Positions 1,369 to 16,487 of a stretch of 31,209 nt of DNA are shown one piece after another (positions within the stretch are counted from its first letter, which is position 1; each line of letters begins with the position of its first letter). Made by a program: the position numbers and the translations under genes. The stretch comes from a virus (lineage: Duplodnaviria > Heunggongvirae > Uroviricota > Caudoviricetes). A model generated the notes under the pieces. It did not search any database and was not told the origin of the DNA. It saw only the letters and a list, made by a program, of their open reading frames with translations. The DNA is taken from positions 1 through 31,209 of IMG/VR virus record IMGVR_UViG_3300029719_000311. One strand, written 5' to 3'.

Positions 1369-1444
1369 GCCGATATAGCTCAGTTGGTAGAGCAGCGCAT
1401 TCGTAATGCGAAGGTCGTAGGTTCGACTCCTATTATCGGCACCA
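1369..1444 (+). tRNA. thrW: tRNA-Thr (anticodon CGT), thrW-like
   Basis: 76-nt sequence GCCGATATAGCTCAGTTGGTAGAGCAGCGCATTCGTAATGCG...GGTTCGACTCCTATTATCGGCACCA with cloverleaf features: acceptor stem GCCGATA/TATCGGC, anticodon loop TTCGTAA, T-loop GGTTCGA, 3' CCA. Confidence 0.95.
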
Positions 1445-1458: not shown

Positions 1459-2622
1459 TTACACATCATTAGTACCTTCCTTATTTTTTGACTGGGACAA
1501 ATTTGGGACCGATGGGTTCAGGATCGAGTCTATTTGCCGTGCGTGTTCGGTAAGGTGATTAGGTGCAAGGTGAGCATATCGACGAACCATTTCGATAGAC
1601 TCCCAGCCTCCCATTTCCTGTAACACTGACAACGGGACTCCGGCTTGAACCAGCCAACTTGCCCAGGTGTGTCTCAAGTCGTGAAATCTGAAATCATCAA
1701 TACCAGCCCGTCTCAGCGCCGCTTTCCAGGCTGTGTTTGCGTCATACCGCATCTTCCTTACTGTTGGCGCTTTCGTTCCGTCTGGTTTGGTACAGCTTTC
1801 CTTGTACACAAATACCCAACGGTGATGATTCCCGATTTGTTTTTTCAATACGCGACATGCAGTATCATTCAGCGCAACGCCAATTGCGCGGTTTGATTTA
1901 CTCTCTTCCGGGTTTATCCATGCCACCCGGCGCTGCATATCTATTTGTTGCCATTCAAGGTTGATGATGTTCGAGCGTCTTAAGCCTGTTGCCAGTGCAA
2001 ATTCAACAACAGACTTTAATGGCTCCGGACATTCATCAATCAGCCTTTGTGCTTCATGGGGCTCCAGCCAGCGGATCCGTTTATTCTTTGGTTGAGGCAC
2101 TTTAATAATTGGTGCCTTATCCAGCATTTTCCATTCACGCTCTGCGGCTCTTAGTAGGGCCTTTATAAATGAAAGATGCGTAGCCTTCGTTGCAACGGAC
2201 GCTGGTTTTGGCGTGTATTCTGGAACAGGTTTCCCTTTTTTTCTGCATGCTTCTGCCCTGAGTTTCCAGTTTTCCTCATGACGCCGGTTCGTCATTTTCT
2301 GCATTGCTGAATAAATTTTTGATTCAGTAATGTCTCTTAGTTGCATTCCTGCGAAATGTTGAAGCCAGAATCCGATCCGGCTTTTGTCATCGTCCAGTGA
2401 TTTTTTATGTGCTTTCTCTTCAAGCCACCTGACACACGCTTCCTCGAACGTTATATCAGGTATTTCACCAAGTTTGCTGACCCGCCATGCTTCAGCCTTT
2501 AGCTTGTCATGGAGTTCTGTCGCCTGCCTTTTGTCCTTTGTTCCAAGAGACTGTTTAAATCTTTTACCGTTCGGCAATGTGAAACTGGCGTACCATATTT
2601 CACCTCTGCGGAAGAGTGACAT
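1459..2622 (-). CDS. int: Tyrosine integrase, P22 Int-like (387 aa)
   Basis: Translation [46 protein letters not shown]... ending ...[39 protein letters not shown] with tyrosine-recombinase R..H..R..Y pattern; adjacent to tRNA att site; P22 Int is known to target thrW. Confidence 0.95.
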
Positions 2623-2849
2623 TTTCTTTCCTCTGTTATGCCATCACCCGCGCTCACCTGGACAGTATGCAGCGGAGACTGAAGAGCCGCAATGCAGGCT
2701 TGTCGTGTTGTGAGGTAAGGAGATTTATTCTTAGTGGGATCTTTGCGTGTTGCCTGAAGACGCCCTGTGCGTATCCAGTTAATGGCAGTCGGTCTGGATA
2801 TCTTGAGAAAATGACAGGCCTCATCGAGTGTGAGGCTGTATGGCTCCAT
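2499..2849 (-). CDS. xis: Excisionase (Xis), 116 aa, overlapping the int 5' end
   Basis: Internal ATG of ORF 2499..2933 gives [31 protein letters not shown]... (excisionase-type HTH); position immediately upstream of and overlapping int; start overlaps stop of upstream ORF by 1 nt. Start codon choice uncertain. Confidence 0.65.
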
Positions 2850-3154
2850 TATTTCACCTCTTGCTGTGACATTGTTGAGAAATGGATACCAGCTCGTTGC
2901 TGCCAGACGATCCAACCGAGAGTCATATCCCATGCCATGTATTCGTTATCGCCGTTTTTTGCTCTCCGACGATCTACTAAGTCACCAAAACGCTTTTCCA
3001 TGAATAATTCATAAGCTTCGCGTTCATCTGGTTCTACTTCCAGAGATAGGAGTGCGATTTCATAAGCACGGCGCTCAATATCGTCTCGCACGTCAAGGCT
3101 GCTGATACGCTCTTTAATTTCTTTAATCAGTTCTTTGTCGGTAAAAGTGGTCAT
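2849..3154 (-). CDS. Hypothetical phage early protein (101 aa)
   Basis: ORF translationally coupled to neighbours on both sides (shared boundary bases at 2849 and 3154); acidic helical protein; function unknown. Confidence 0.5.
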   Translation of the reverse strand: MTTFTDKELIKEIKERISSLDVRDDIERRAYEIALLSLEVEPDEREAYELFMEKRFGDLVDRRRAKNGDNEYMAWDMTLGWIVWQQRAGIHFSTMSQQEVK

Positions 3155-3516
3155 TATGCTCCAGCCTCCGGTGCTTTTGGCATTACTGCCCAGTGAGTGA
3201 TATTGACGTTTTCAAGGTCCCCGACCTGAAATGTCCACTGCCATTCTCCGGTTTCTTTTTGTCCCCAGGTGTACCAGAGAGAACGCCAGCCAATTAGCCA
3301 GCCTTCTCCGTTAGCATCGAATAACAAAACACTTTCATTTGCTGGTGGCAGTTCAGTTGACACTGGTATTACTTTGTTTTCCTGTGCTGCACATTTAGCT
3401 TCAAGCGCATCGAATTTACGCACCAGGTATTCAGCATCCGTTTCATTCACTTTCAGATCTCGCGGTACACATCTCCCACGAAGAAACCCTTCCATTTCGA
3501 AAACATTCATGCGCAT
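3154..3516 (-). CDS. Hypothetical phage early protein (120 aa)
   Basis: ORF in the leftward early operon, overlaps HD-domain gene by 10 nt; Trp-rich C-terminus; function unknown. Confidence 0.5.
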   Translation of the reverse strand: MRMNVFEMEGFLRGRCVPRDLKVNETDAEYLVRKFDALEAKCAAQENKVIPVSTELPPANESVLLFDANGEGWLIGWRSLWYTWGQKETGEWQWTFQVGDLENVNITHWAVMPKAPEAGA

Positions 3517-4043
3517 TTGCGTAACTCCGATAATTCGTTAAAGCGTTCCATAAACATCCCGTAGGCATGGCCTGGAGCCAGTGGAATCACGTTGAACATC
3601 TCTGTTGCCGGGATACCTTCCAGCACAGGCCAGAAAGAGCCATCATCAAGCCCGAGATCGCGGCGTTCGGTTGCCAGCATAATGAGATCGGCATATTTCA
3701 CTGGCGTGCTCATAACAGGAGGTAACCCGTATTTCTCACGGATTACGGCGTCTATTTTTTCTTCCATCCGTTTATAGTCAGGAAGAAGTCGTTTCAGTGG
3801 TGCGGGGATGTCCTGGCAATATGCTTCTGTTGCATCATGCATTAAAGCTTCAAAAGCAAATTCCTGCGGCACCAGCTGGCTGCAAAGCACCGCATGTTGG
3901 GCGACACTGTAGAAGTGTGAAAGATGTCCTGCAAAGCGACAGATATTTGAAAGGGAAACCGCGATATCGTTAATAACGATGTCGTCTTTATTTATCCTGT
4001 CATAATAAAAATGCTTCCCGGAAAAAGTTTTAATAAATGACAT
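3507..4043 (-). CDS. HD-domain phosphohydrolase (YfdR-like), about 178 aa
   Basis: HD signature in ...HFYSVAQHAV... and ...ALMHDATEAY...; start chosen at second ATG (MSFIKTF) preceded by GGAGAA; the longer ORF could start at 4070. Confidence 0.7.
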   Translation of the reverse strand: MSFIKTFSGKHFYYDRINKDDIVINDIAVSLSNICRFAGHLSHFYSVAQHAVLCSQLVPQEFAFEALMHDATEAYCQDIPAPLKRLLPDYKRMEEKIDAVIREKYGLPPVMSTPVKYADLIMLATERRDLGLDDGSFWPVLEGIPATEMFNVIPLAPGHAYGMFMERFNELSELRKCA

Positions 4044-4099
4044 TTTGTTCTCCACGTATATGCGCTGCACCGCGCTGAATTCGGGTAAAAGGAAGCCCT

Positions 4100-4587
4100 C
4101 ACCGTCCGGCGATTATTGAGTCAATTACATTTCCATAAATGCCCCCGTAGGGGCGGTTAGTTTCTCCACAAAACAGAGAAGAACACCTGCGGTGGCAGCC
4201 GCCCGGATGGATTGGGTTATGAGCCCGTCGTCCGGTGATGCTCTTCTCTGTTTTGTAAAAAGGACGGTACCAGCCGGAAGCAAGGGTACAAACTGGTACC
4301 GCCAGGACTACACACAGCATAAAGTTGTGGTGCCGGGTGCCTCCCGGTGCCTGGCGAAGGTTGCACACCAGGCGGGTGGGTATCCACAGAAGGTCGACTG
4401 TCAGCCTCAACCTTAACCCGCGTGCGCTGAGCCGCATTCACCACAACGCTAAGGATTCTCTCTGGTTGAAAATACTTAGCTGTTATGTGCCTGCTTTTAG
4501 CCACATCAGGCGAGGTGGACCTAGTTATTCCCCAACAACAAGGATTCGGTTAATCTGGTTATCCCCAACAACGCAAAAGGAAAAGAA
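4100..4587. other. GC-rich non-coding segment with nested inverted repeats and two 16-bp direct repeats; candidate structured RNA or early-left regulatory region
   Basis: Perfect 15-bp inverted repeat ACAAAACAGAGAAGA (4168..4182 / 4242..4256) around a 59-nt GC-rich spacer; GGTACCAG/CTGGTACC inverted repeat (4266..4300); GCCCC..GGGGC hairpin (4141..4155); direct repeats GTTATYCCCCAACAAC at 4524..4540 and 4558..4572; track ORFs here overlap on both strands and lack RBS. Confidence 0.3.
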
Positions 4588-5022
4588 ATGTCCGGTAATA
4601 TCTATACGCTGTACAAATCCCACTGTGAAAATGTTGGAAAGTATCGGGGCATTGAAATCAGTGGGGTAGTGTCATCAGTCGAAATAAGCAAAGTTGAATC
4701 AAGGGCAACATTACTTACTCTTTTGGACCTTGTCTTACATGAGCACCGGAAGAAATTCGGCACTCCCTATAATCAGTTGAATGGGAAAAAGGCTCTGGTT
4801 CACCTTATTCTGATGAAGCATCACTGGATGCCAAAACAGATTAATGAGATGAAATTTGATGAACTTCTTCTTTCAATTCAGGATGAACTCACACTTGATA
4901 AAATAAGCGTAACCGCCCAGAAATTTTTAGATTATCGAGACTGGAGATCACAAATTCATCACTTTGATGATTTTGACGAAAATGAATGGGATCCTAATTT
5001 GTCTGCACAATATCTAAAGTAA
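4588..5022 (+). CDS. Hypothetical protein (144 aa), rightward gene at the sieB/N-equivalent position
   Basis: ATG preceded by AAAGGAAAAG; moderately AT-rich; orientation opposite to surrounding early-left genes; no recognisable motifs. Confidence 0.5.
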   Translation: MSGNIYTLYKSHCENVGKYRGIEISGVVSSVEISKVESRATLLTLLDLVLHEHRKKFGTPYNQLNGKKALVHLILMKHHWMPKQINEMKFDELLLSIQDELTLDKISVTAQKFLDYRDWRSQIHHFDDFDENEWDPNLSAQYLK

Positions 5023-5200
5023 CATCCTGTGATAAAACCGTGATTTCCTGATCCAGTTTTTTTAAGGAGTCTATTGTTTCCTGTCGATAAGACAGCACTT
5101 CACGAAGCTGGTTTATAGCTGCCAGCTTCTTTGTCATCCACTCATAAATTTCCTCATCTGTGTAGCCAGGCGCGACGATTTTGGGTTCTGTTTTGTGCAT
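4994..5200 (-). CDS. Hypothetical small protein (68 aa)
   Basis: Start at internal ATG (MHKTEPKIVAPGYTDEEIYEW...) preceded by AGGAG at 7-nt spacing; convergent with and overlapping the 3' end of the 144-aa gene. Confidence 0.4.
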   Translation of the reverse strand: MHKTEPKIVAPGYTDEEIYEWMTKKLAAINQLREVLSYRQETIDSLKKLDQEITVLSQDVTLDIVQTN

Positions 5201-5397
5201 TTCACATCTCCTCAAGTTATCAGTTACTTGTTGATGGGGACCAGATTGTTAAAGAGCTAAGCGTCCTGTAGGGCGCTTTTTTGTTGCTAACGAATCATCC
5301 TGGACTTCATATGCCCCAGGCGGCTACTTCGTGGGCGTCCTGCCTGTTCGTTGTTTCGCTTGGGTACATTATGTATCTCGAAGGTACATTGTCAAGT

Positions 5398-5422
5398 ATA
5401 AAAAAACCTGCCGAAGCAGGTT
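5398..5422 (-). terminator. Rho-independent terminator downstream of repressor gene
   Basis: Minus-strand hairpin AACCTGC-TTCG-GCAGGTT followed by a 7-T run, 13 bp after the repressor stop. Confidence 0.6.
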
Positions 5423-5434
5423 CATAAACATTGA

Positions 5435-6109
5435 TTAGGCTTTGATTTTGTATCTTCTTGGTTTTCCTGAGAAAATCACTGTACCAATTATAGAGCAATT
5501 ACCGTTGATCTTAATGTAAGGCTCAGGCCAGTTTGGGTTTAACGCTTTGAGATAACGCTGTGTCCCATCTTCTATCAACCTTTTGAAGGTGGTTTCGCCT
5601 GTATCGTGCATCAATGCAATAACGTCGTCACCGTGGCAGGCAGGTACTTCAGGATCGACAAAAATCATGTCTCCCGGGCGGTACTCATCAATCATTGAAT
5701 CACCTATCACCCGCAAGATATAAGTCATTTCCCCACAGGGTACAGGGCAGGGATACGTTTCTGCTGTGCTCAAATCAACCTCAGAATATCCAACTTCTTT
5801 CCATGCTCCGGCCTGTACCCATGATATGACAGGGACTAATGTGATTTGTTTATTAGTGATTGAAACATCAGGTTTTTTTGTGATGTTCGTTGTCTGGTGT
5901 TCTTGATCGAGCCATCCGACAGGCAGGTCGAAACATTTTTCGATGTGTCGTGCCATGCTGTCACCGATATTTTTAGTAGCACCATCTCCCATAAACCTGC
6001 TGGTCTGGGTTGGCTCGCGATCAATCATAGTGGCAAAGGAAGAATTCCCGCCAACACCATCTCTCAGTTTTCTGGCGTTAGACCGCCGGATGTCATGGAT
6101 TGTTTTCAT
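5435..6109 (-). CDS. Phage repressor, cI/C2-like (N-terminal HTH, C-terminal S24 LexA-type peptidase domain)
   Basis: C-terminal ...VIGDSMIDEYRPGDMIFVDPE... (S24 GDSM serine motif) plus a downstream Lys; divergent from cro-like gene with palindromic operators between them. Confidence 0.85.
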   Translation of the reverse strand: MKTIHDIRRSNARKLRDGVGGNSSFATMIDREPTQTSRFMGDGATKNIGDSMARHIEKCFDLPVGWLDQEHQTTNITKKPDVSITNKQITLVPVISWVQAGAWKEVGYSEVDLSTAETYPCPVPCGEMTYILRVIGDSMIDEYRPGDMIFVDPEVPACHGDDVIALMHDTGETTFKRLIEDGTQRYLKALNPNWPEPYIKINGNCSIIGTVIFSGKPRRYKIKA

Positions 6110-6123
6110 AACGAAATTAAAAC

Positions 6124-6194
6124 CCTTGTACCGTTAAGGTACAAGTATCTTGAAGGTTCATTTCAATCATGTAATATGTACACCGGAGGTACAT
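6124..6194. promoter_or_regulatory. OR-like operator region between repressor and cro-like gene
   Basis: 21-bp palindrome CTTGTACC-GTTAA-GGTACAAG (6124..6144) and second dyad ATGTAC-N8-GTACAT (6175..6194) overlapping the cro RBS; related GGTACATT sites downstream of cI at 5364..5395. Confidence 0.45.
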
Positions 6195-13488: not shown

Positions 13489-15903
13489 ATGGCAGTAAAG
13501 ATTTCAGGTGTACTGAAAGACGGCACAGGAAAACCGGTACAGAACTGCACAATCCAGCTGAAAGCAAAACGTAACAGCACCGCGGTGGTGGTGAACACGC
13601 TGGCCTCAGAAAATCCGGATGAAGCCGGGCGTTACAGCATGGACGTTGAGTACGGTCAGTACAGCGTTATTCTGTTGGTGGAAGGGTTCCCGCCGTCACA
13701 TGCCGGGACCATCACCGTGTATGAAGATTCCCGACCCGGTACGCTGAATGATTTTCTCGGTGCCATGACGGAGGATGATGCCCGTCCGGAGGCTCTGCGC
13801 CGTTTTGAACTGATGGTGGAAGAGGTGGCGCGTAACGCGTCCGCGGTGGCACAGAACACGGCAGCCGCGAAGAAGTCAGCCGGCGATGCCGGCACATCTG
13901 CCCGTGAGGCGGCAACGAACGCGAAAGCGTCGGAAACCAGCGCAGAATCCTCAAAAACGGCTGCCGCATCGTCAGCCAGTTCGGCGGCGTCATCGGCATC
14001 ATCGGCGTCTGCTTCAAAAGATGAGGCGACCAGACAAGCGTCAGCAGCGAAGAGCAGCGCCACGACGGCATCCACGAAGGCGACAGAGGCTGCTGGCAGT
14101 GCGACGGCGGCAGCTCAGAGCAAAAGTACGGCAGAATCCGCAGCAACGCGCGCCGAGACAGCAGCAAAACGGGCAGAGGATATTGCATCCGCCGTGGCGC
14201 TTGAGGATGCGAGCACGACGAAAAAGGGGATAGTACAGCTCAGTAGTGCGACTAACAGCACTTCCGAGTCACTGGCGGCAACACCAAAAGCCGTTAAGGC
14301 CGCGTATGACCTGGCTAACGGGAAATACACCGCACAGGATGCAACGACAGCACAGAAAGGGATAATCCAGCTAAGCAGCGCGACCAACAGCACGTCTGAA
14401 ACGCTTGCCGCGACACCAAAGGCAGTAAAAGCAGCCAATGACAATGCTGAGAAACGTCTGCAGAAAGATCAGAACGGTGCGGATATCCCTGGCAAAGATA
14501 CCTTTACGAAAAATATTGGTGCCTGCCGTGCCTTCGGTGGGTCAGTAAGCACAACAACAGGAAACTGGACGACTGCACAGTTTATCGAGTGGCTGGATTC
14601 TCAGGGAGCATTTAACCATCCATACTGGATGTGCAAGGGTTCCTGGTCTTATGGCAATAATAAAATCATTACTGATACTGACTGCGGTAATATTCATCTC
14701 GCCGGAGCTGTCATTGAAGTAATGGGGATAAAGTCAGCGATGACGATCCGCATTACCACACCGACCACCTCCACTGGTGGTGGAACAACTAACGCCCAGT
14801 TTACCTATATCAATCACGGAACAGATTATTCACCTGGCTGGCGAAGGGACTATAACTCCAGAAATAAGCCAACGGCATCAGAGATCGGGGCGTTACCGTC
14901 AGGTGGAACAGCAGTATCATCAGTTAATCTGGCTTCAAAAGGTCGGGTAACCGCGCTGACAGACAATACGCAGGGGGCAGCAGGTCTTGAGTTATACGAG
15001 GTGTATAACAACGGATATCCAACAGCGTATGGAAATATCATTCACCTGAAAGGGATGACAGCCGTTGGCGAAGGTGAGTTACTCATCGGCTGGAGTGGTA
15101 CAAGCGGTGCTCATGCTCCGGCATTTATTCGTTCACGACGGGATACGACCGACGCAAACTGGTCGCCGTGGGCGCAGCTTTACACCTCGGCTCATCCTCC
15201 TGCAGAGTTTTATCCAGTCGGTGCACCAATCCCGTGGCCATCAGATACCGTTCCGTCTGGTTATGCCCTGATGCAGGGGCAGACTTTTGACAAATCTGCA
15301 TACCCGAAACTTGCAGTTGCTTATCCGTCAGGCGTGATCCCTGATATGCGTGGCTGGACGATTAAGGGCAAGCCCGCCAGTGGTCGGGCCGTATTATCTC
15401 AGGAACAGGACGGCATTAAATCGCACACCCACAGCGCCAGCGCATCCAGTACGGATTTGGGGACGAAAACCACATCGTCGTTTGATTACGGAACCAAATC
15501 CACGAATAACACCGGGGCGCATACCCATAGTATTAGCGGGACCGCAAATAGTGCCGGTGCGCACCAACACAAGAGTTCCGGTGCATTTGGTGGCACGAAC
15601 ACGAGCATTTTCCCTAATGGTTATACCGCGATTTCAAATCTAAGCGCGGGGATTATGAGCACAACAAGCGGTAGTGGCCAGACTCGTAATGCAGGGAAGA
15701 CATCATCAGATGGTGCTCATACCCACTCGCTGTCCGGCACTGCTGCAAGCGCAGGCGCACATGCACATACTGTCGGTATTGGTGCTCATACGCACTCCGT
15801 TGCGATTGGTTCACATGGACACACCATCACCGTTAACGCTGCTGGTAACGCGGAAAACACCGTCAAAAACATCGCATTTAACTATATTGTGAGGCTTGCA
15901 TAA
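13489..15903 (+). CDS. stf: Side tail fibre protein Stf
   Basis: N-terminal [30 protein letters not shown]...; Ala/Ser-rich coiled region; duplicated KGI(V/I)[11 protein letters not shown](S/T)[11 protein letters not shown] segments; C-terminal His-rich GAHTHS/GAHAH repeats. Confidence 0.85.
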
Positions 15904-16487
15904 TGGTATTCAGAATGAGTGAACAACCACGGACCATAACAATTTATAATCTGCTGGCCGGAACTAATGAATTTATTGGTGAAGGTGATGCATATATTCC
16001 GCCTCATACAGGTCTGCCAGCAAACAGTACCGATATTGCACCGCCAGATATTCCGGCAGGCTTCGTGGCTGTTTTCAACAGTGATGAGGCATCGTGGCAT
16101 CTCGTTGAAGATCATCGGGGTAAAACGGTTTATGACGTGGCTTCCGGCGACGCGTTATTTATTTCTGAACTCGGTCCGTTACCGGAAAATGTTACCTGGT
16201 TATCGCCGGGAGGGGAATATCAGAAGTGGAACGGCACAGCCTGGGTGAAGGATACGGAAGCAGAAAAACTGTTCCGGATCCGGGAGGCGGAAGAAACAAA
16301 AAACAGCCTGATGCAGGTAGCCAGTGAGCATATAGCGCCGCTTCAGGATGCTGTAGATCTGGAGATCGCAACGGAGGAAGAAAACTCGTTGCTGGAAGCC
16401 TGGAAAAAGTATCGGGTGTTGCTGAACCGTGTTGATACATCAACTGCACCGGATATTGAGTGGCCTGCTGTCCCTGTTATGGAGTAA
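15903..16487 (+). CDS. tfa: Tail fibre assembly protein Tfa
   Basis: TAATG overlap with stf; ...[68 protein letters not shown]... typical Tfa N-terminal region. Confidence 0.8.

What the first reader, a model, noticed from the sequence alone, without database searches (positions are those of the whole stretch)
4588..5200. Convergent, overlapping 144-aa and 68-aa genes at the superinfection-exclusion position next to the repressor
Lambdoid phages carry exclusion or abortive-infection genes (sieB, rexAB-type) between the early-left operon and cI. Here a rightward 144-aa ORF with no recognisable domain overlaps a leftward 68-aa ORF with a strong AGGAG RBS at their 3' ends. This looks like a lysogeny-expressed accessory pair (exclusion, toxin-antitoxin or anti-defence).
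Basis: inference. Interest (0 to 1): 0.4.

Follow-up and report, generated by a model that had tools for sequence, protein, structure and literature searches.

The report
Head-on prophage effector–antidote gene cassette
The two overlapping genes are real and travel together as a mobile cassette in many enterobacterial prophages; one gene faces against a lytic operon and should be on in the dormant phage, and its small partner should be made only when the phage wakes up, which is the layout of known "defence plus self-immunity" pairs, although its function is untested.

Summary
A 144-aa ORF (4588-5022, +) and a 68-aa ORF (5200-4994, -, GAGGAG RBS) converge and share 29 nt.

The positional reading is wrong. 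Two cI operator copies sit inside a near-consensus leftward promoter (5395-5368), directly after the cI terminator. This is OL/PL, so the 68-aa gene is the first gene of the cI-repressed early-left operon. It is not a lysogeny-expressed gene between PL and cI. The 144-aa gene (NCBIfam "ECs1072 family") is inverted inside that operon and has its own conserved -10 element and terminator.

Both are genuine coding genes with diverged homologues. They form a conserved unit: 171 loci, 54 distinct pairs, identity correlation r = 0.95. The 3' overlap is always convergent with the same frame relation. In other clades one 10-nt palindrome, TGGGATCCCA, encodes Trp-Asp-Pro in both proteins.

The cassette occurs in PL, PR and late operons. 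The small gene usually runs with the flanking lytic operon and the large one against it.

No domain, fold or defence-database match was found for either protein.

Best reading (about 0.45): a prophage-state effector, probably anti-phage, paired with a lytic-phase antidote. This parallels TerI/anti-TerI, Tai/Ati and Tha/Ith. Function is inferred, not shown.

The parts
4588..5022 (+). 144-aa gene (ECs1072-family phage-associated protein), inverted relative to the surrounding leftward early operon
   Evidence: ORF. NCBIfam NF033230 at 157.8 bits, cutoff 70; phrog_5286. 76 family representatives at 50% clustering, all about 145-155 aa. Conserved L50, R54, L64, G66, A69, H72 and W134. AF2 all-alpha model, pLDDT 78.5.
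4994..5200 (-). 68-aa partner gene; first ORF downstream of PL
   Evidence: ORF with RBS. phrog_1744. Profile search finds 87 proteins in Serratia, Xenorhabdus, Erwinia, Klebsiella, Citrobacter, Salmonella and Arsenophonus. Conserved N-terminal motif M-x-K-x-EP...E-E-[IL]-x-x-W. AF2 model is a single long helix, residues 15-60, pLDDT 88, with a heptad pattern.
4994..5022 (.). 29-nt antiparallel 3' overlap. The partner's TAG stop lies opposite the Pro136/Asn137 codons (CCT AAT) of the large gene's E-W-D-P motif
   Evidence: The frame relation is identical in all clades. In Serratia, Citrobacter, Klebsiella and Salmonella clades the overlap is 71-110 nt, and TGGGATCCCA encodes W-D-P on both strands.
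5208..5213 (-). GAGGAG ribosome-binding site of the 68-aa gene
   Evidence: Sequence.
5368..5395 (-). PL-type promoter TTGACA-16-CATAAT (11 of 12 match)
   Evidence: The same promoter and operators lie upstream of the partner gene in L010.
5352..5388 (.). Two cI operator copies (OL), at 5352-5368 and 5372-5388, overlapping the -10/+1 and spacer of PL
   Evidence: Same 17-mer family as the three OR copies at 6127-6193. The motif gives 12 matches against 1.17 expected, clustered at OR and OL.
5404..5423 (-). Intrinsic terminator of cI
   Evidence: 8-bp stem followed by a T run; sequence.
5259..5284 (+). Strand-asymmetric terminator that ends the 144-aa gene's transcript beyond the partner gene's start
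   Evidence: The + strand hairpin is -11.5 kcal/mol (8-bp stem, centroid; extended MFE structure -12.1), followed by U6. The - strand is only -7.5 kcal/mol with a poor tail. The same stems with a different loop occur in L006, although the proteins there are only about 52% identical.
4528..4556 (+). Candidate own promoter of the 144-aa gene: TTCCCC-17-TAATCT, with the -10 at 4551-4556
   Evidence: A TA-n3-T element, preceded by TG (an extended -10) in most clades but by GG in the window clade, is conserved 30-45 nt upstream of the start codon in every clade, including chromosomal solo copies. It was not detected by the strict consensus scan. Inferred.
4519..5290 (.). Approximate limits of the mobile cassette
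   Evidence: Related phages (SfV, SfII, PhiR29, ST64B) match only the flanks, window 4400-4518 and 5291-5355, and carry other cargo between them.
4255..4477 (-). STnc100/PasD-family prophage sRNA-like element downstream of the cassette in the PL direction
   Evidence: Rfam RF02076, full-length match at 43.1 bits (gathering score 47), E = 1e-7 to 4e-8. The family is described in bioRxiv 10.64898/2026.05.13.724894.

Best explanation
The region is a mobile two-gene cassette built as a 'noncontiguous operon'.

Shown by sequence: the 68-aa gene is the first gene transcribed from the cI-repressed PL promoter, so it should be made only after induction or infection. The 144-aa gene lies head-on inside that operon. 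It carries its own conserved -10 element and its own terminator, placed beyond the partner gene. It can therefore be transcribed in the lysogen, and its mRNA is antisense to the whole partner gene.

Inferred: the 144-aa cytoplasmic all-helical protein is a prophage-state effector. It is most likely an anti-phage (exclusion or abortive-infection) factor that would also harm the phage's own lytic growth. The 68-aa long-helix protein is its cognate neutraliser (self-immunity), produced once lytic transcription starts. Head-on transcription from the strong lytic promoter, together with pairing of the overlapping 3' ends, would add an RNA-level off-switch for the 144-aa gene.
For: 1. Position. OL/PL lies between cI and the pair. 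The same arrangement is seen in L010 and L011.

2. Autonomy of the large gene. A conserved TA-n3-T -10 element (with TG in most clades) is found in all clades and in solo chromosomal copies. A strand-specific terminator is conserved despite about 50% protein divergence. A Sakai microarray lists ECs1072 among genes whose expression changed significantly between growth phases in ordinary culture; this is weak evidence.

3. Linkage. 171 loci and 54 distinct pairs are convergent and overlapping. 76 of 80 partner-seeded loci and 79 of 80 large-gene-seeded loci carry the other gene. Identities co-vary at r = 0.95.

4. Polarity rule across four insertion sites: PL first gene, PL third gene, PR between cII and O in Sakai Sp4, and the late operon between Q and holin. 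The nearest flanking ORFs are on the partner's strand in 43 of 50 and 48 of 52 cases.

5. The large gene exists alone (L004, L008/9, L021), so it is not constitutively toxic and works without the partner.

6. The partner is a single amphipathic helix with a heptad pattern, a typical binder shape.

7. Experimentally proven systems share this logic: TerI/anti-TerI, Tai/Ati in coliphage phi80 and Tha/Ith.
Against: There is no functional data of any kind. Neither protein matches PADLOC, Pfam, PDB or BFVD. Neither is homologous to TaiEcA or AtiEcA.

The promoter of the 144-aa gene is weak by consensus and unverified. The strict scan did not call it.

Partner timing differs between contexts, early in PL and late after Q. 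This would be odd if the effector acted early.

Partner-only loci exist (L020, L100-102).

The alternative cargos at the same site are also of unknown function, so a 'defence hotspot' is not established.

The r = 0.95 co-variation is partly expected from physical linkage and overlap alone.
Confidence: 0.45

Rival explanations
1. Reverse polarity of function. The 68-aa protein is a lytic-phase host-directed effector, of the Kil, cIII or host-shutoff type. The 144-aa protein, with its antisense mRNA, is a lysogen-expressed antidote that guards against leaky PL expression, giving type-I-like or type-II-like toxin-antitoxin logic.
For: The small gene sits first after PL, where lambda-type phages place small host-modulating proteins. 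The antisense overlap resembles type I systems. The large protein would already be present in the lysogen.
Against: The small protein is acidic and soluble, with no hydrophobic segment. There is no Pfam match to cIII, Kil or N families for any of 23 members. The large gene occurs alone in prophages and in a non-phage chromosomal context with its promoter conserved, which is unexpected for a dedicated antidote. Partner-only loci are tolerated.
Confidence: 0.15
2. A lysis-lysogeny regulatory accessory. The 144-aa protein stabilises the prophage state or modulates a host regulator, and the 68-aa protein antagonises it on induction. No anti-phage role is involved.
For: In many loci the cassette is adjacent to cI/cro. 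Both proteins are cytoplasmic and helical. A phage csrA homologue lies next to the cassette in Xenorhabdus loci.
Against: The cassette is dispensable. Close relatives (SfV, SfII, PhiR29) have other cargo at the site. It sits just as well between Q and holin, or between cII and O. No DNA-binding domain was detected.
Confidence: 0.15
3. The 68-aa ORF is not translated. Only the antisense RNA or transcriptional interference matters, and the small ORF is an accident of an inverted moron.
For: Any inverted gene in an operon undergoes head-on transcription. Within E. coli the small ORF is nearly invariant, so dN/dS cannot be judged there.
Against: Homologues down to 16-50% identity keep the N-terminal motif, the helix and in-frame indels. 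A strong RBS is present. In the long-overlap clades the Pro codon's free third base and the next base are fixed, so the opposite strand reads Trp: 30 of 41 distinct long-overlap pairs have TGGGATCCCA. Four-fold sites are less variable inside the overlap, 0.42 against 0.65 bits, p = 0.044.
Confidence: 0.05

Closest known systems
TERi system (TerI with anti-TerI1/2) of Listeria comK prophages (bioRxiv 10.1101/2025.02.27.640495)
   Same: A small defence gene is transcribed from its own promoter on the strand opposite to the early lytic operon. It overlaps an opposite-strand gene of that operon, which encodes a self-immunity protein that binds it. An antisense silencing component was observed. The same promoter carries swappable cargo.
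   Different: The proteins are unrelated in size: TerI is 65 aa, against 144 aa here, and the host is Gram-positive. In TERi the defence ORF overlaps the immunity ORF on the opposite strand. Here only the 3' ends overlap (29-110 nt), with a conserved frame. Terminase targeting is shown for TerI and nothing is shown here.
TaiEcA/AtiEcA of coliphage phi80 (PMC11364771)
   Same: An E. coli lambdoid prophage carries a defence gene inverted inside a lytic (Q-dependent) operon and expressed in the lysogen. The adjacent small gene in the operon is the counter-defence. The authors describe it as a noncontiguous operon.
   Different: The genes are divergent with overlapping 5' ends (PHI80_63/64), not convergent. 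TaiEcA is 204 aa and AtiEcA 76 aa. No sequence similarity was found by HMM or BLASTP.
Tha/Ith of Staphylococcus aureus phage 80alpha (PMC11087260)
   Same: The prophage defence and its cognate inhibitor lie in antisense, mutually exclusive transcription units. Polymerase collisions act as the switch between lysogeny and lysis.
   Different: The roles are inverted. There the defence gene is in the cI operon and the inhibitor is the inverted gene with its own promoter. Tha is a HEPN RNase. The HEPN R-x4-6-H motif is not conserved here.
BstA with the aba element (PMC8585504)
   Same: A prophage-encoded abortive-infection protein next to the repressor, with built-in self-immunity.
   Different: Self-immunity there is a DNA element within the gene, not a protein. 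BstA is a large protein and there is no PADLOC hit here.
Lambda RexAB and P22 SieB/Esc (established knowledge)
   Same: Accessory exclusion functions near the immunity region. SieB/Esc embodies the idea of an exclusion protein plus an escape product from the same locus.
   Different: rexAB lie between cI and OL/PL and are co-transcribed with cI, whereas here OL/PL separates cI from the pair. RexB and SieB are membrane proteins, and neither protein here has a membrane segment.

Membership tests
NCBIfam NF033230 'ECs1072 family phage-associated protein' (144-aa gene) | HMM score above the curated cutoff (70 bits) over the full length | tested here: met
   157.8 bits, residues 4-144 against profile 2-142 of 142. 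The family carries no functional annotation ('hypoth_equivalog').
PHROG 5286 (144 aa) and PHROG 1744 (68 aa) | Full-length profile match | tested here: met
   1.5e-90 and 6e-35, both full length. Both are 'unknown function'.
Lambda rexAB-type cI-operon exclusion genes | Located between cI and OL/PL and co-transcribed with cI in the lysogen | tested here: not met
   The cI terminator is at 5423-5404, and OL/PL at 5395-5352 lies between cI and the pair.
Lambda rexAB / P22 sieB-type exclusion proteins | Membrane-spanning component | tested here: not met
   The longest uncharged stretches are 8 and 5 residues, and GRAVY is -0.47 and -0.50. There are no PADLOC hits.
Type II toxin-antitoxin operon | Two co-directional, co-transcribed genes, with the antitoxin continuously expressed alongside the toxin | tested here: not met
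   The genes are convergent and under different promoters, one of them cI-repressed. There is no TA-family Pfam hit.
Type I toxin-antitoxin | A small hydrophobic toxin peptide plus an antisense RNA | tested here: not met
   Antisense overlap exists, but the small protein is acidic and hydrophilic (pI 4.8) and the other strand encodes a conserved 144-aa protein.
Noncontiguous-operon prophage defence/self-immunity pairs (TerI/anti-TerI, Tai/Ati, Tha/Ith) | One gene inverted inside an operon, with its own promoter | tested here: met
   Flanking ORFs are on the partner's strand in 43 of 50 and 48 of 52 cases. A -10 element is conserved and the gene has its own terminator. Promoter activity itself is inferred.
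Noncontiguous-operon prophage defence/self-immunity pairs | The cognate partner is part of a lytic operon that is silent in the lysogen | tested here: met
   The partner is first after the operator-bearing PL here and in L010. It lies after the Q-like gene and a terminator in L016 and ST64B-type loci.
Noncontiguous-operon prophage defence/self-immunity pairs | Anti-phage phenotype of the inverted gene, and neutralisation by direct binding of the partner | not testable with these tools
No experimental data were found.
Tai/Ati (phi80) | Sequence homology to TaiEcA or AtiEcA | tested here: not met
   The large-protein family HMM finds nothing in phi80 (best E 1.0). The partner HMM's best hit is marginal (E 0.012, 10.3 bits) on a different ORF, not PHI80_63/64. 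BLASTP against TaiEcA and AtiEcA gives E >= 0.4.
HEPN RNase toxins | Invariant R-x4-6-H catalytic motif in a four-helix bundle | tested here: not met
   H72 is nearly invariant, but the residue five positions before it is K, R, E, I, G or D across the family. There are no HEPN Pfam hits in 47 members. Foldseek hits to HEPN have probability <= 0.13.
Lambda N / cIII-type small early-left proteins | Pfam family match (N antiterminator, Lambda_CIII) | tested here: not met
   No such hit for the 68-aa protein or 22 homologues at E <= 1. The cassette also functions outside PL.
Rfam RF02076 STnc100 (flanking element 4255-4477, - strand) | Score at or above the gathering threshold (47 bits) | tested here: inconclusive
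   43.1 bits, full-length model 1-206, E = 4e-8 to 1e-7. This is below gathering but far from chance. STnc100 and PasD are reported as divergent relatives.

The most novel reading that the evidence does not exclude
The antiparallel overlap is itself functional. A 10-nt palindrome (TGGGATCCCA) makes both proteins end in the same Trp-Asp-Pro-containing tail. The small protein would then neutralise the large one by mimicking its C-terminal tail and competing for the same pocket or target. This would be an inhibitor whose specificity determinant is hard-wired to its target by being encoded on the complementary strand of the same bases. The window's clade would be a derived form, in which a synonymous C-to-T change in the large gene turned the partner's Trp codon into a stop.
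Probability: 0.1. Interest if true: 0.75.

Novelty: new member of a known kind. Interest (0 to 1): 0.5.

Why it matters
If the inference holds, this is a compact and very common prophage immunity module that has never been characterised. The whole 801-nt cassette query is covered at 80% or more in 408 of 5,426 complete E. coli genomes. Relatives occur in Shigella SfIV-type phages, Salmonella ST64B, Klebsiella, Citrobacter, Serratia, Erwinia and Xenorhabdus prophages.

Neither protein belongs to any known defence family, and the cassette carries its own self-immunity. It would extend the recently recognised 'noncontiguous operon' rule: defence gene head-on in a lytic operon, antidote in the operon. 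The polarity rule found here could serve as a genome-mining signature for new prophage defence and antidote pairs.

It also corrects annotation. The small gene is missing from SfIV, the large gene is missing from ST64B, and two annotated ORFs upstream probably overlie an sRNA. Finally, it offers a clean natural case of conserved antiparallel dual coding.

Tried and rejected
- **Domain and defence databases.** Pfam, NCBIfam, PHROGs and PADLOC were run on both proteins. Pfam was also run on 47 and 23 family members. Only function-less family names came back.
- **Weak Foldseek hints.** Bcl-2-like and HEPN hits had probability <= 0.13. HEPN was rejected on motif grounds.
- **Wide family alignments.** These were too divergent for the search for related loci. 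The genome-contig scan with the narrow alignment gave only 3 loci.
- **N-like antiterminator or cIII-like protein for the 68-aa gene.** Rejected: no family match, and the cassette also works from PR and late operons.
- **Relatives of phi80 Tai/Ati.** Rejected.
- **The A7 run (5057-5063) as a programmed frameshift site.** Not pursued. 79 of 80 close relatives keep the 29-nt-overlap frame, and frameshifted forms are rare (L005 and a few metagenome singletons).
- **The site as a hotspot of known defence genes.** The alternative cargos (SfV orf33, PhiR29_1 242-aa, SfII_36) have no PADLOC or Pfam identity.
- **Literature.** Searches for ECs1072, sb50 and self-immunity in lambdoid phages found no study of this pair.

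Full report
**Observation.** The 144-aa ORF is at 4588-5022 (+). The 68-aa ORF is at 5200-4994 (-), starting at an ATG with GAGGAG 7 nt upstream. Their 3' ends overlap by 29 nt. The window is an SfIV/SfV-type lambdoid (pro)phage: Shigella phage SfIV is 98.3% identical over 4400-5450. SfIV annotates only the large ORF, whereas phage Kati annotates both.

- cI (224 aa, Peptidase_S24) ends at 5435 and has a clean intrinsic terminator at 5423-5404.
- Directly after it, on the same strand, lies the best promoter match in the region, TTGACA-16-CATAAT at 5395-5368.
- A 17-bp palindromic motif (TGTAYC-N4-RGGTACA) occurs three times between cI and cro (6127-6193). It occurs twice more at 5352-5368 and 5372-5388, inside and just after this promoter.
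- The motif gives 12 hits against 1.17 expected in the whole window, clustered at these two places.
- This is therefore OL/PL. The 68-aa gene is the first gene of the cI-repressed early-left operon, about 160 nt downstream of the predicted start. It does not sit between PL and cI as rexAB does in lambda.
- The 144-aa gene is embedded head-on in that operon. The operon continues leftwards through an HD-phosphatase gene and, as annotated in the near-identical SfIV, to xis and int.

**Anatomy of the cassette.**
- Related phages (SfV, SfII, PhiR29, ST64B) match only the flanks, 4400-4518 and 5291-5355. They carry different cargo between them, so the mobile unit is about 4519-5290.
- On the + strand, beyond the partner's start codon, is a terminator at 5259-5278 followed by a U run. 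It is stronger on the + strand (-11.5 kcal/mol for the 8-bp stem, -12.1 for the extended MFE structure, with a G.U pair and U6) than on the - strand (-7.5 kcal/mol, with a C/A mismatch and a poor tail). It is conserved, with a different loop, in a metagenomic relative whose proteins are only about 52% identical. The large gene's mRNA should therefore be antisense to the whole partner gene.
- Upstream of the large gene a TA-n3-T -10 element is conserved 30-45 nt before the start codon in every clade, including solo chromosomal copies. It is preceded by TG (an extended -10) in most clades and by GG in the window clade, where it reads TAATCT at 4551-4556. This is comparative evidence for an autonomous promoter. 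The strict consensus scan did not call it, and its activity is inferred.
- Downstream in the PL direction, 4255-4477 (-) is a full-length match to the prophage sRNA family STnc100 (43.1 bits, gathering score 47, E about 1e-7). The GC-rich multi-frame ORFs there are probably not genes.

**Both ORFs are real genes.**
- The 144-aa protein belongs to NCBIfam NF033230, 'ECs1072 family phage-associated protein' (157.8 bits).
- An exhaustive profile search finds 76 representatives at 50% clustering. All are about 145-155 aa and appear to be single-domain. W134 is invariant, and L50, R54, L64, G66, A69 and H72 are nearly so.
- The 68-aa protein looked nearly invariant at first. Convergent small ORFs next to diverged large-gene homologues turned out to be its relatives. 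They share the motif M-x-K-x-E-P-x-[IF]-x-x-x-G-x-[ST]-x-E-[EQ]-[IL]-x-x-W, followed by a helix.
- A profile of these finds 87 proteins in Serratia, Xenorhabdus, Erwinia, Klebsiella, Citrobacter, Salmonella and Arsenophonus.

**The pair is a conserved unit.**
- Across all loci fetched, 171 carry a convergent overlapping pair, in 54 distinct protein combinations.
- Among 80 viral contigs found with the partner alone, 76 have the large gene convergent and overlapping by 71-110 nt, mostly 95.
- Among 80 found with the large gene alone, 79 have the partner with the 29-nt overlap.
- Pairwise identities of the two proteins co-vary at r = 0.95 over 1,431 comparisons. Physical linkage contributes to this figure.
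- The frame relation of the overlap is the same everywhere. The large protein's (E)-W-D-P codons lie opposite the partner's x-D-P codons.
- In the Serratia, Citrobacter, Klebsiella and Salmonella clades the palindrome TGGGATCCCA encodes W-D-P in both proteins: 71 of 77 loci, and 30 of 41 distinct pairs with the long overlap.
- In the window's clade the partner has TAG exactly where those clades have TGG. The cause is a change that is synonymous in the large gene (CCT instead of CCC).
- Four-fold degenerate sites of the large gene vary less inside the overlap, 0.42 against 0.65 bits, p = 0.044.
- Exceptions exist. The large gene occurs alone in L004, in chromosomal L008/9 next to phoX, and in L021, where the protein lacks EWDP. 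The partner occurs alone in L020 and in L100-102, where WDP has decayed to WES.

**Polarity rule.** The cassette occurs at four different places:
- first gene after PL (window, L010, L011);
- third gene after the repressor (L007/L019);
- between the cII-like gene and O in Sakai prophage Sp4, where the family's namesake ECs1072 lies inverted;
- between a Q-like gene and the holin/lysozyme genes in Citrobacter, Klebsiella and Salmonella ST64B.

In distinct pairs, the nearest ORF of 90 aa or more beyond the large gene's start is on the partner's strand in 43 of 50 cases. Beyond the partner's start it is so in 48 of 52 cases. The small gene therefore usually rides the lytic transcript and the large gene usually opposes it.

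**The proteins.** Neither has a credible Pfam or PADLOC match.
- The 68-aa protein is predicted as one long helix (residues 15-60, pLDDT 88) with a heptad pattern (10 of 13 a/d positions hydrophobic) and an extended N-terminal segment.
- Both are soluble, with no membrane segment.

[quoted passage not shown] A gene placed first after an operator-controlled PL, or after Q, is expressed only in lytic growth. The constant pairing, co-divergence and polarity argue that the small protein exists to deal with the large one once the phage goes lytic. Head-on transcription and RNA pairing would also shut the large gene down. Three systems share this logic and have been proven experimentally:
- TerI/anti-TerI in Listeria prophages. 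The defence gene is on the strand opposite to the early lytic operon, overlaps an immunity gene that binds it, and shows an antisense effect.
- TaiEcA/AtiEcA in coliphage phi80, described as a noncontiguous operon interrupting the Q-dependent operon.
- Tha/Ith in S. aureus phages, where antisense transcription units act as a life-cycle switch.

Solo large genes show that the large protein is tolerated and functional without its partner. This fits a conditional effector better than an antidote. I put about 0.45 on 'prophage-state (probably anti-phage) effector plus lytic-phase cognate neutraliser'. The only expression datum found is a Sakai microarray that lists ECs1072 among genes whose expression changed significantly between growth phases in ordinary culture.

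**Rivals.**
- Reverse roles, with a small lytic toxin and a large lysogenic antidote (0.15).
- A lysis-lysogeny regulatory accessory (0.15).
- An untranslated small ORF (0.05), contradicted by protein-level conservation.
- The remaining probability (about 0.2) lies with functions not considered here.

Membership tests for rexAB-type position, membrane exclusion proteins, type I and type II TA, HEPN, N/cIII and Tai/Ati homology were all negative.

**Novelty and caveats.** The architecture belongs to a recently recognised kind. The two protein families are uncharacterised and unrelated to the known examples, and the conserved convergent dual-coding overlap is distinctive. The whole cassette is common: 408 of 5,426 complete E. 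coli genomes. Each exact protein is seen on 1,000 or more contigs, which is the counting cap. Everything about function, promoter activity and protein-protein contact is inference from sequence and analogy. No experiment or complex prediction could be run here.

Noticed in passing
window 4255-4477 (- strand): Full-length match to the prophage sRNA family STnc100 (RF02076): 43.1 bits against gathering 47, E about 1e-7. It lies in the PL transcript direction, just downstream of the cassette. The GC-rich ORFs here (4099-4437 -, 4217-4504 -, 4325-4669 +, annotated in SfIV/SfII as orf34/35-type proteins) are probably spurious, at least in part.
   Followed up: partly
L015 3362-3435; L016 3676-3758; 71 of 77 loci with both genes in the partner-seeded set L023-L102: The 10-nt palindrome TGGGATCCCA (containing a BamHI site) encodes Trp-Asp-Pro in both convergent proteins. 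In the window the partner has a TAG stop at the position of that Trp.
   Followed up: yes
window 5057-5063 (T7 on +, A7 in the 68-aa gene): A homopolymer run in the frame context A-AAA-AAA-C. Frameshifted partner variants occur in E. albertii (L005, an 80-aa product with 64-nt overlap) and in a few metagenome proteins (P0054, P0064, P0067). These could be sequencing errors, decay or slippage.
   Followed up: partly
window 4526-4540, 4559-4572 and inverted copy 5227-5247: The motif TTAT(T)CCCCAACAAC is repeated twice upstream of the 144-aa gene. A related AATCTGGT..CCCCAnCAAC copy lies in the same orientation relative to the 68-aa gene. This may be a shared binding site or a cassette-end repeat; it is unexplained.
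   Followed up: partly
window 5104-5129: An unusually stable 9-bp hairpin inside the 68-aa coding sequence: -15.6 kcal/mol on the + strand (z = -4.65) and -12.3 kcal/mol on the - strand. It could be an early terminator, a pause site or a processing site for the 144-aa mRNA. The terminator scan of L006 found no counterpart.
   Followed up: no
L022 (E. coli O157:H7 Sakai, prophage Sp4) 14117-14855: The family's namesake ECs1072 (now ECs_5703) lies inverted between the cII-like gene and the O replication gene. A long unannotated + strand ORF with a partner-like segment (LSDVELAEWLIHK) runs antisense through 316 nt of it.
   Followed up: partly
L007 2-169 and L019 4214-4411: A phage-encoded CsrA homologue lies immediately next to the cassette in the L019 (Xenorhabdus poinarii) and L007 prophage loci. 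The 5' leaders of the large gene contain AAGGA/ACAAGGA motifs that resemble CsrA sites.
   Followed up: no
L008/L009 4001-4438: A solo chromosomal copy of the 144-aa family (34% identity) sits between phoX and a DUF1275 gene. There are no phage neighbours, and the extended -10 element is conserved.
   Followed up: partly
L185 1477-2205 (PhiR29_1), L186 1659-1850 (SfII), L002 3321-3617 (SfV orf33): The same PL-proximal site holds different cargo in sister phages. Two of the three are also inverted relative to PL. None has a Pfam or PADLOC identity.
   Followed up: partly
L183 3281-3724 (Salmonella phage ST64B): In ST64B the large gene is unannotated. Only the opposite-strand ORF (sb50, an N-terminally extended partner) is annotated, between the sb49 gene and the holin sb51.
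   Followed up: partly
window 16246-16444 (+) and 1369-1441 (+): There is a full-length Rfam IS009 match (222.7 bits), and a tRNA gene that probably marks the prophage attachment site.
   Followed up: no
window 4070-4440 compared with L001 (SfIV) 2340-4038: Relative to SfIV, the window lacks about 1.2 kb carrying orf33 and most of orf34 (annotated YfdQ and YfdP in PhiR29_1). In this it resembles SfII.
   Followed up: no
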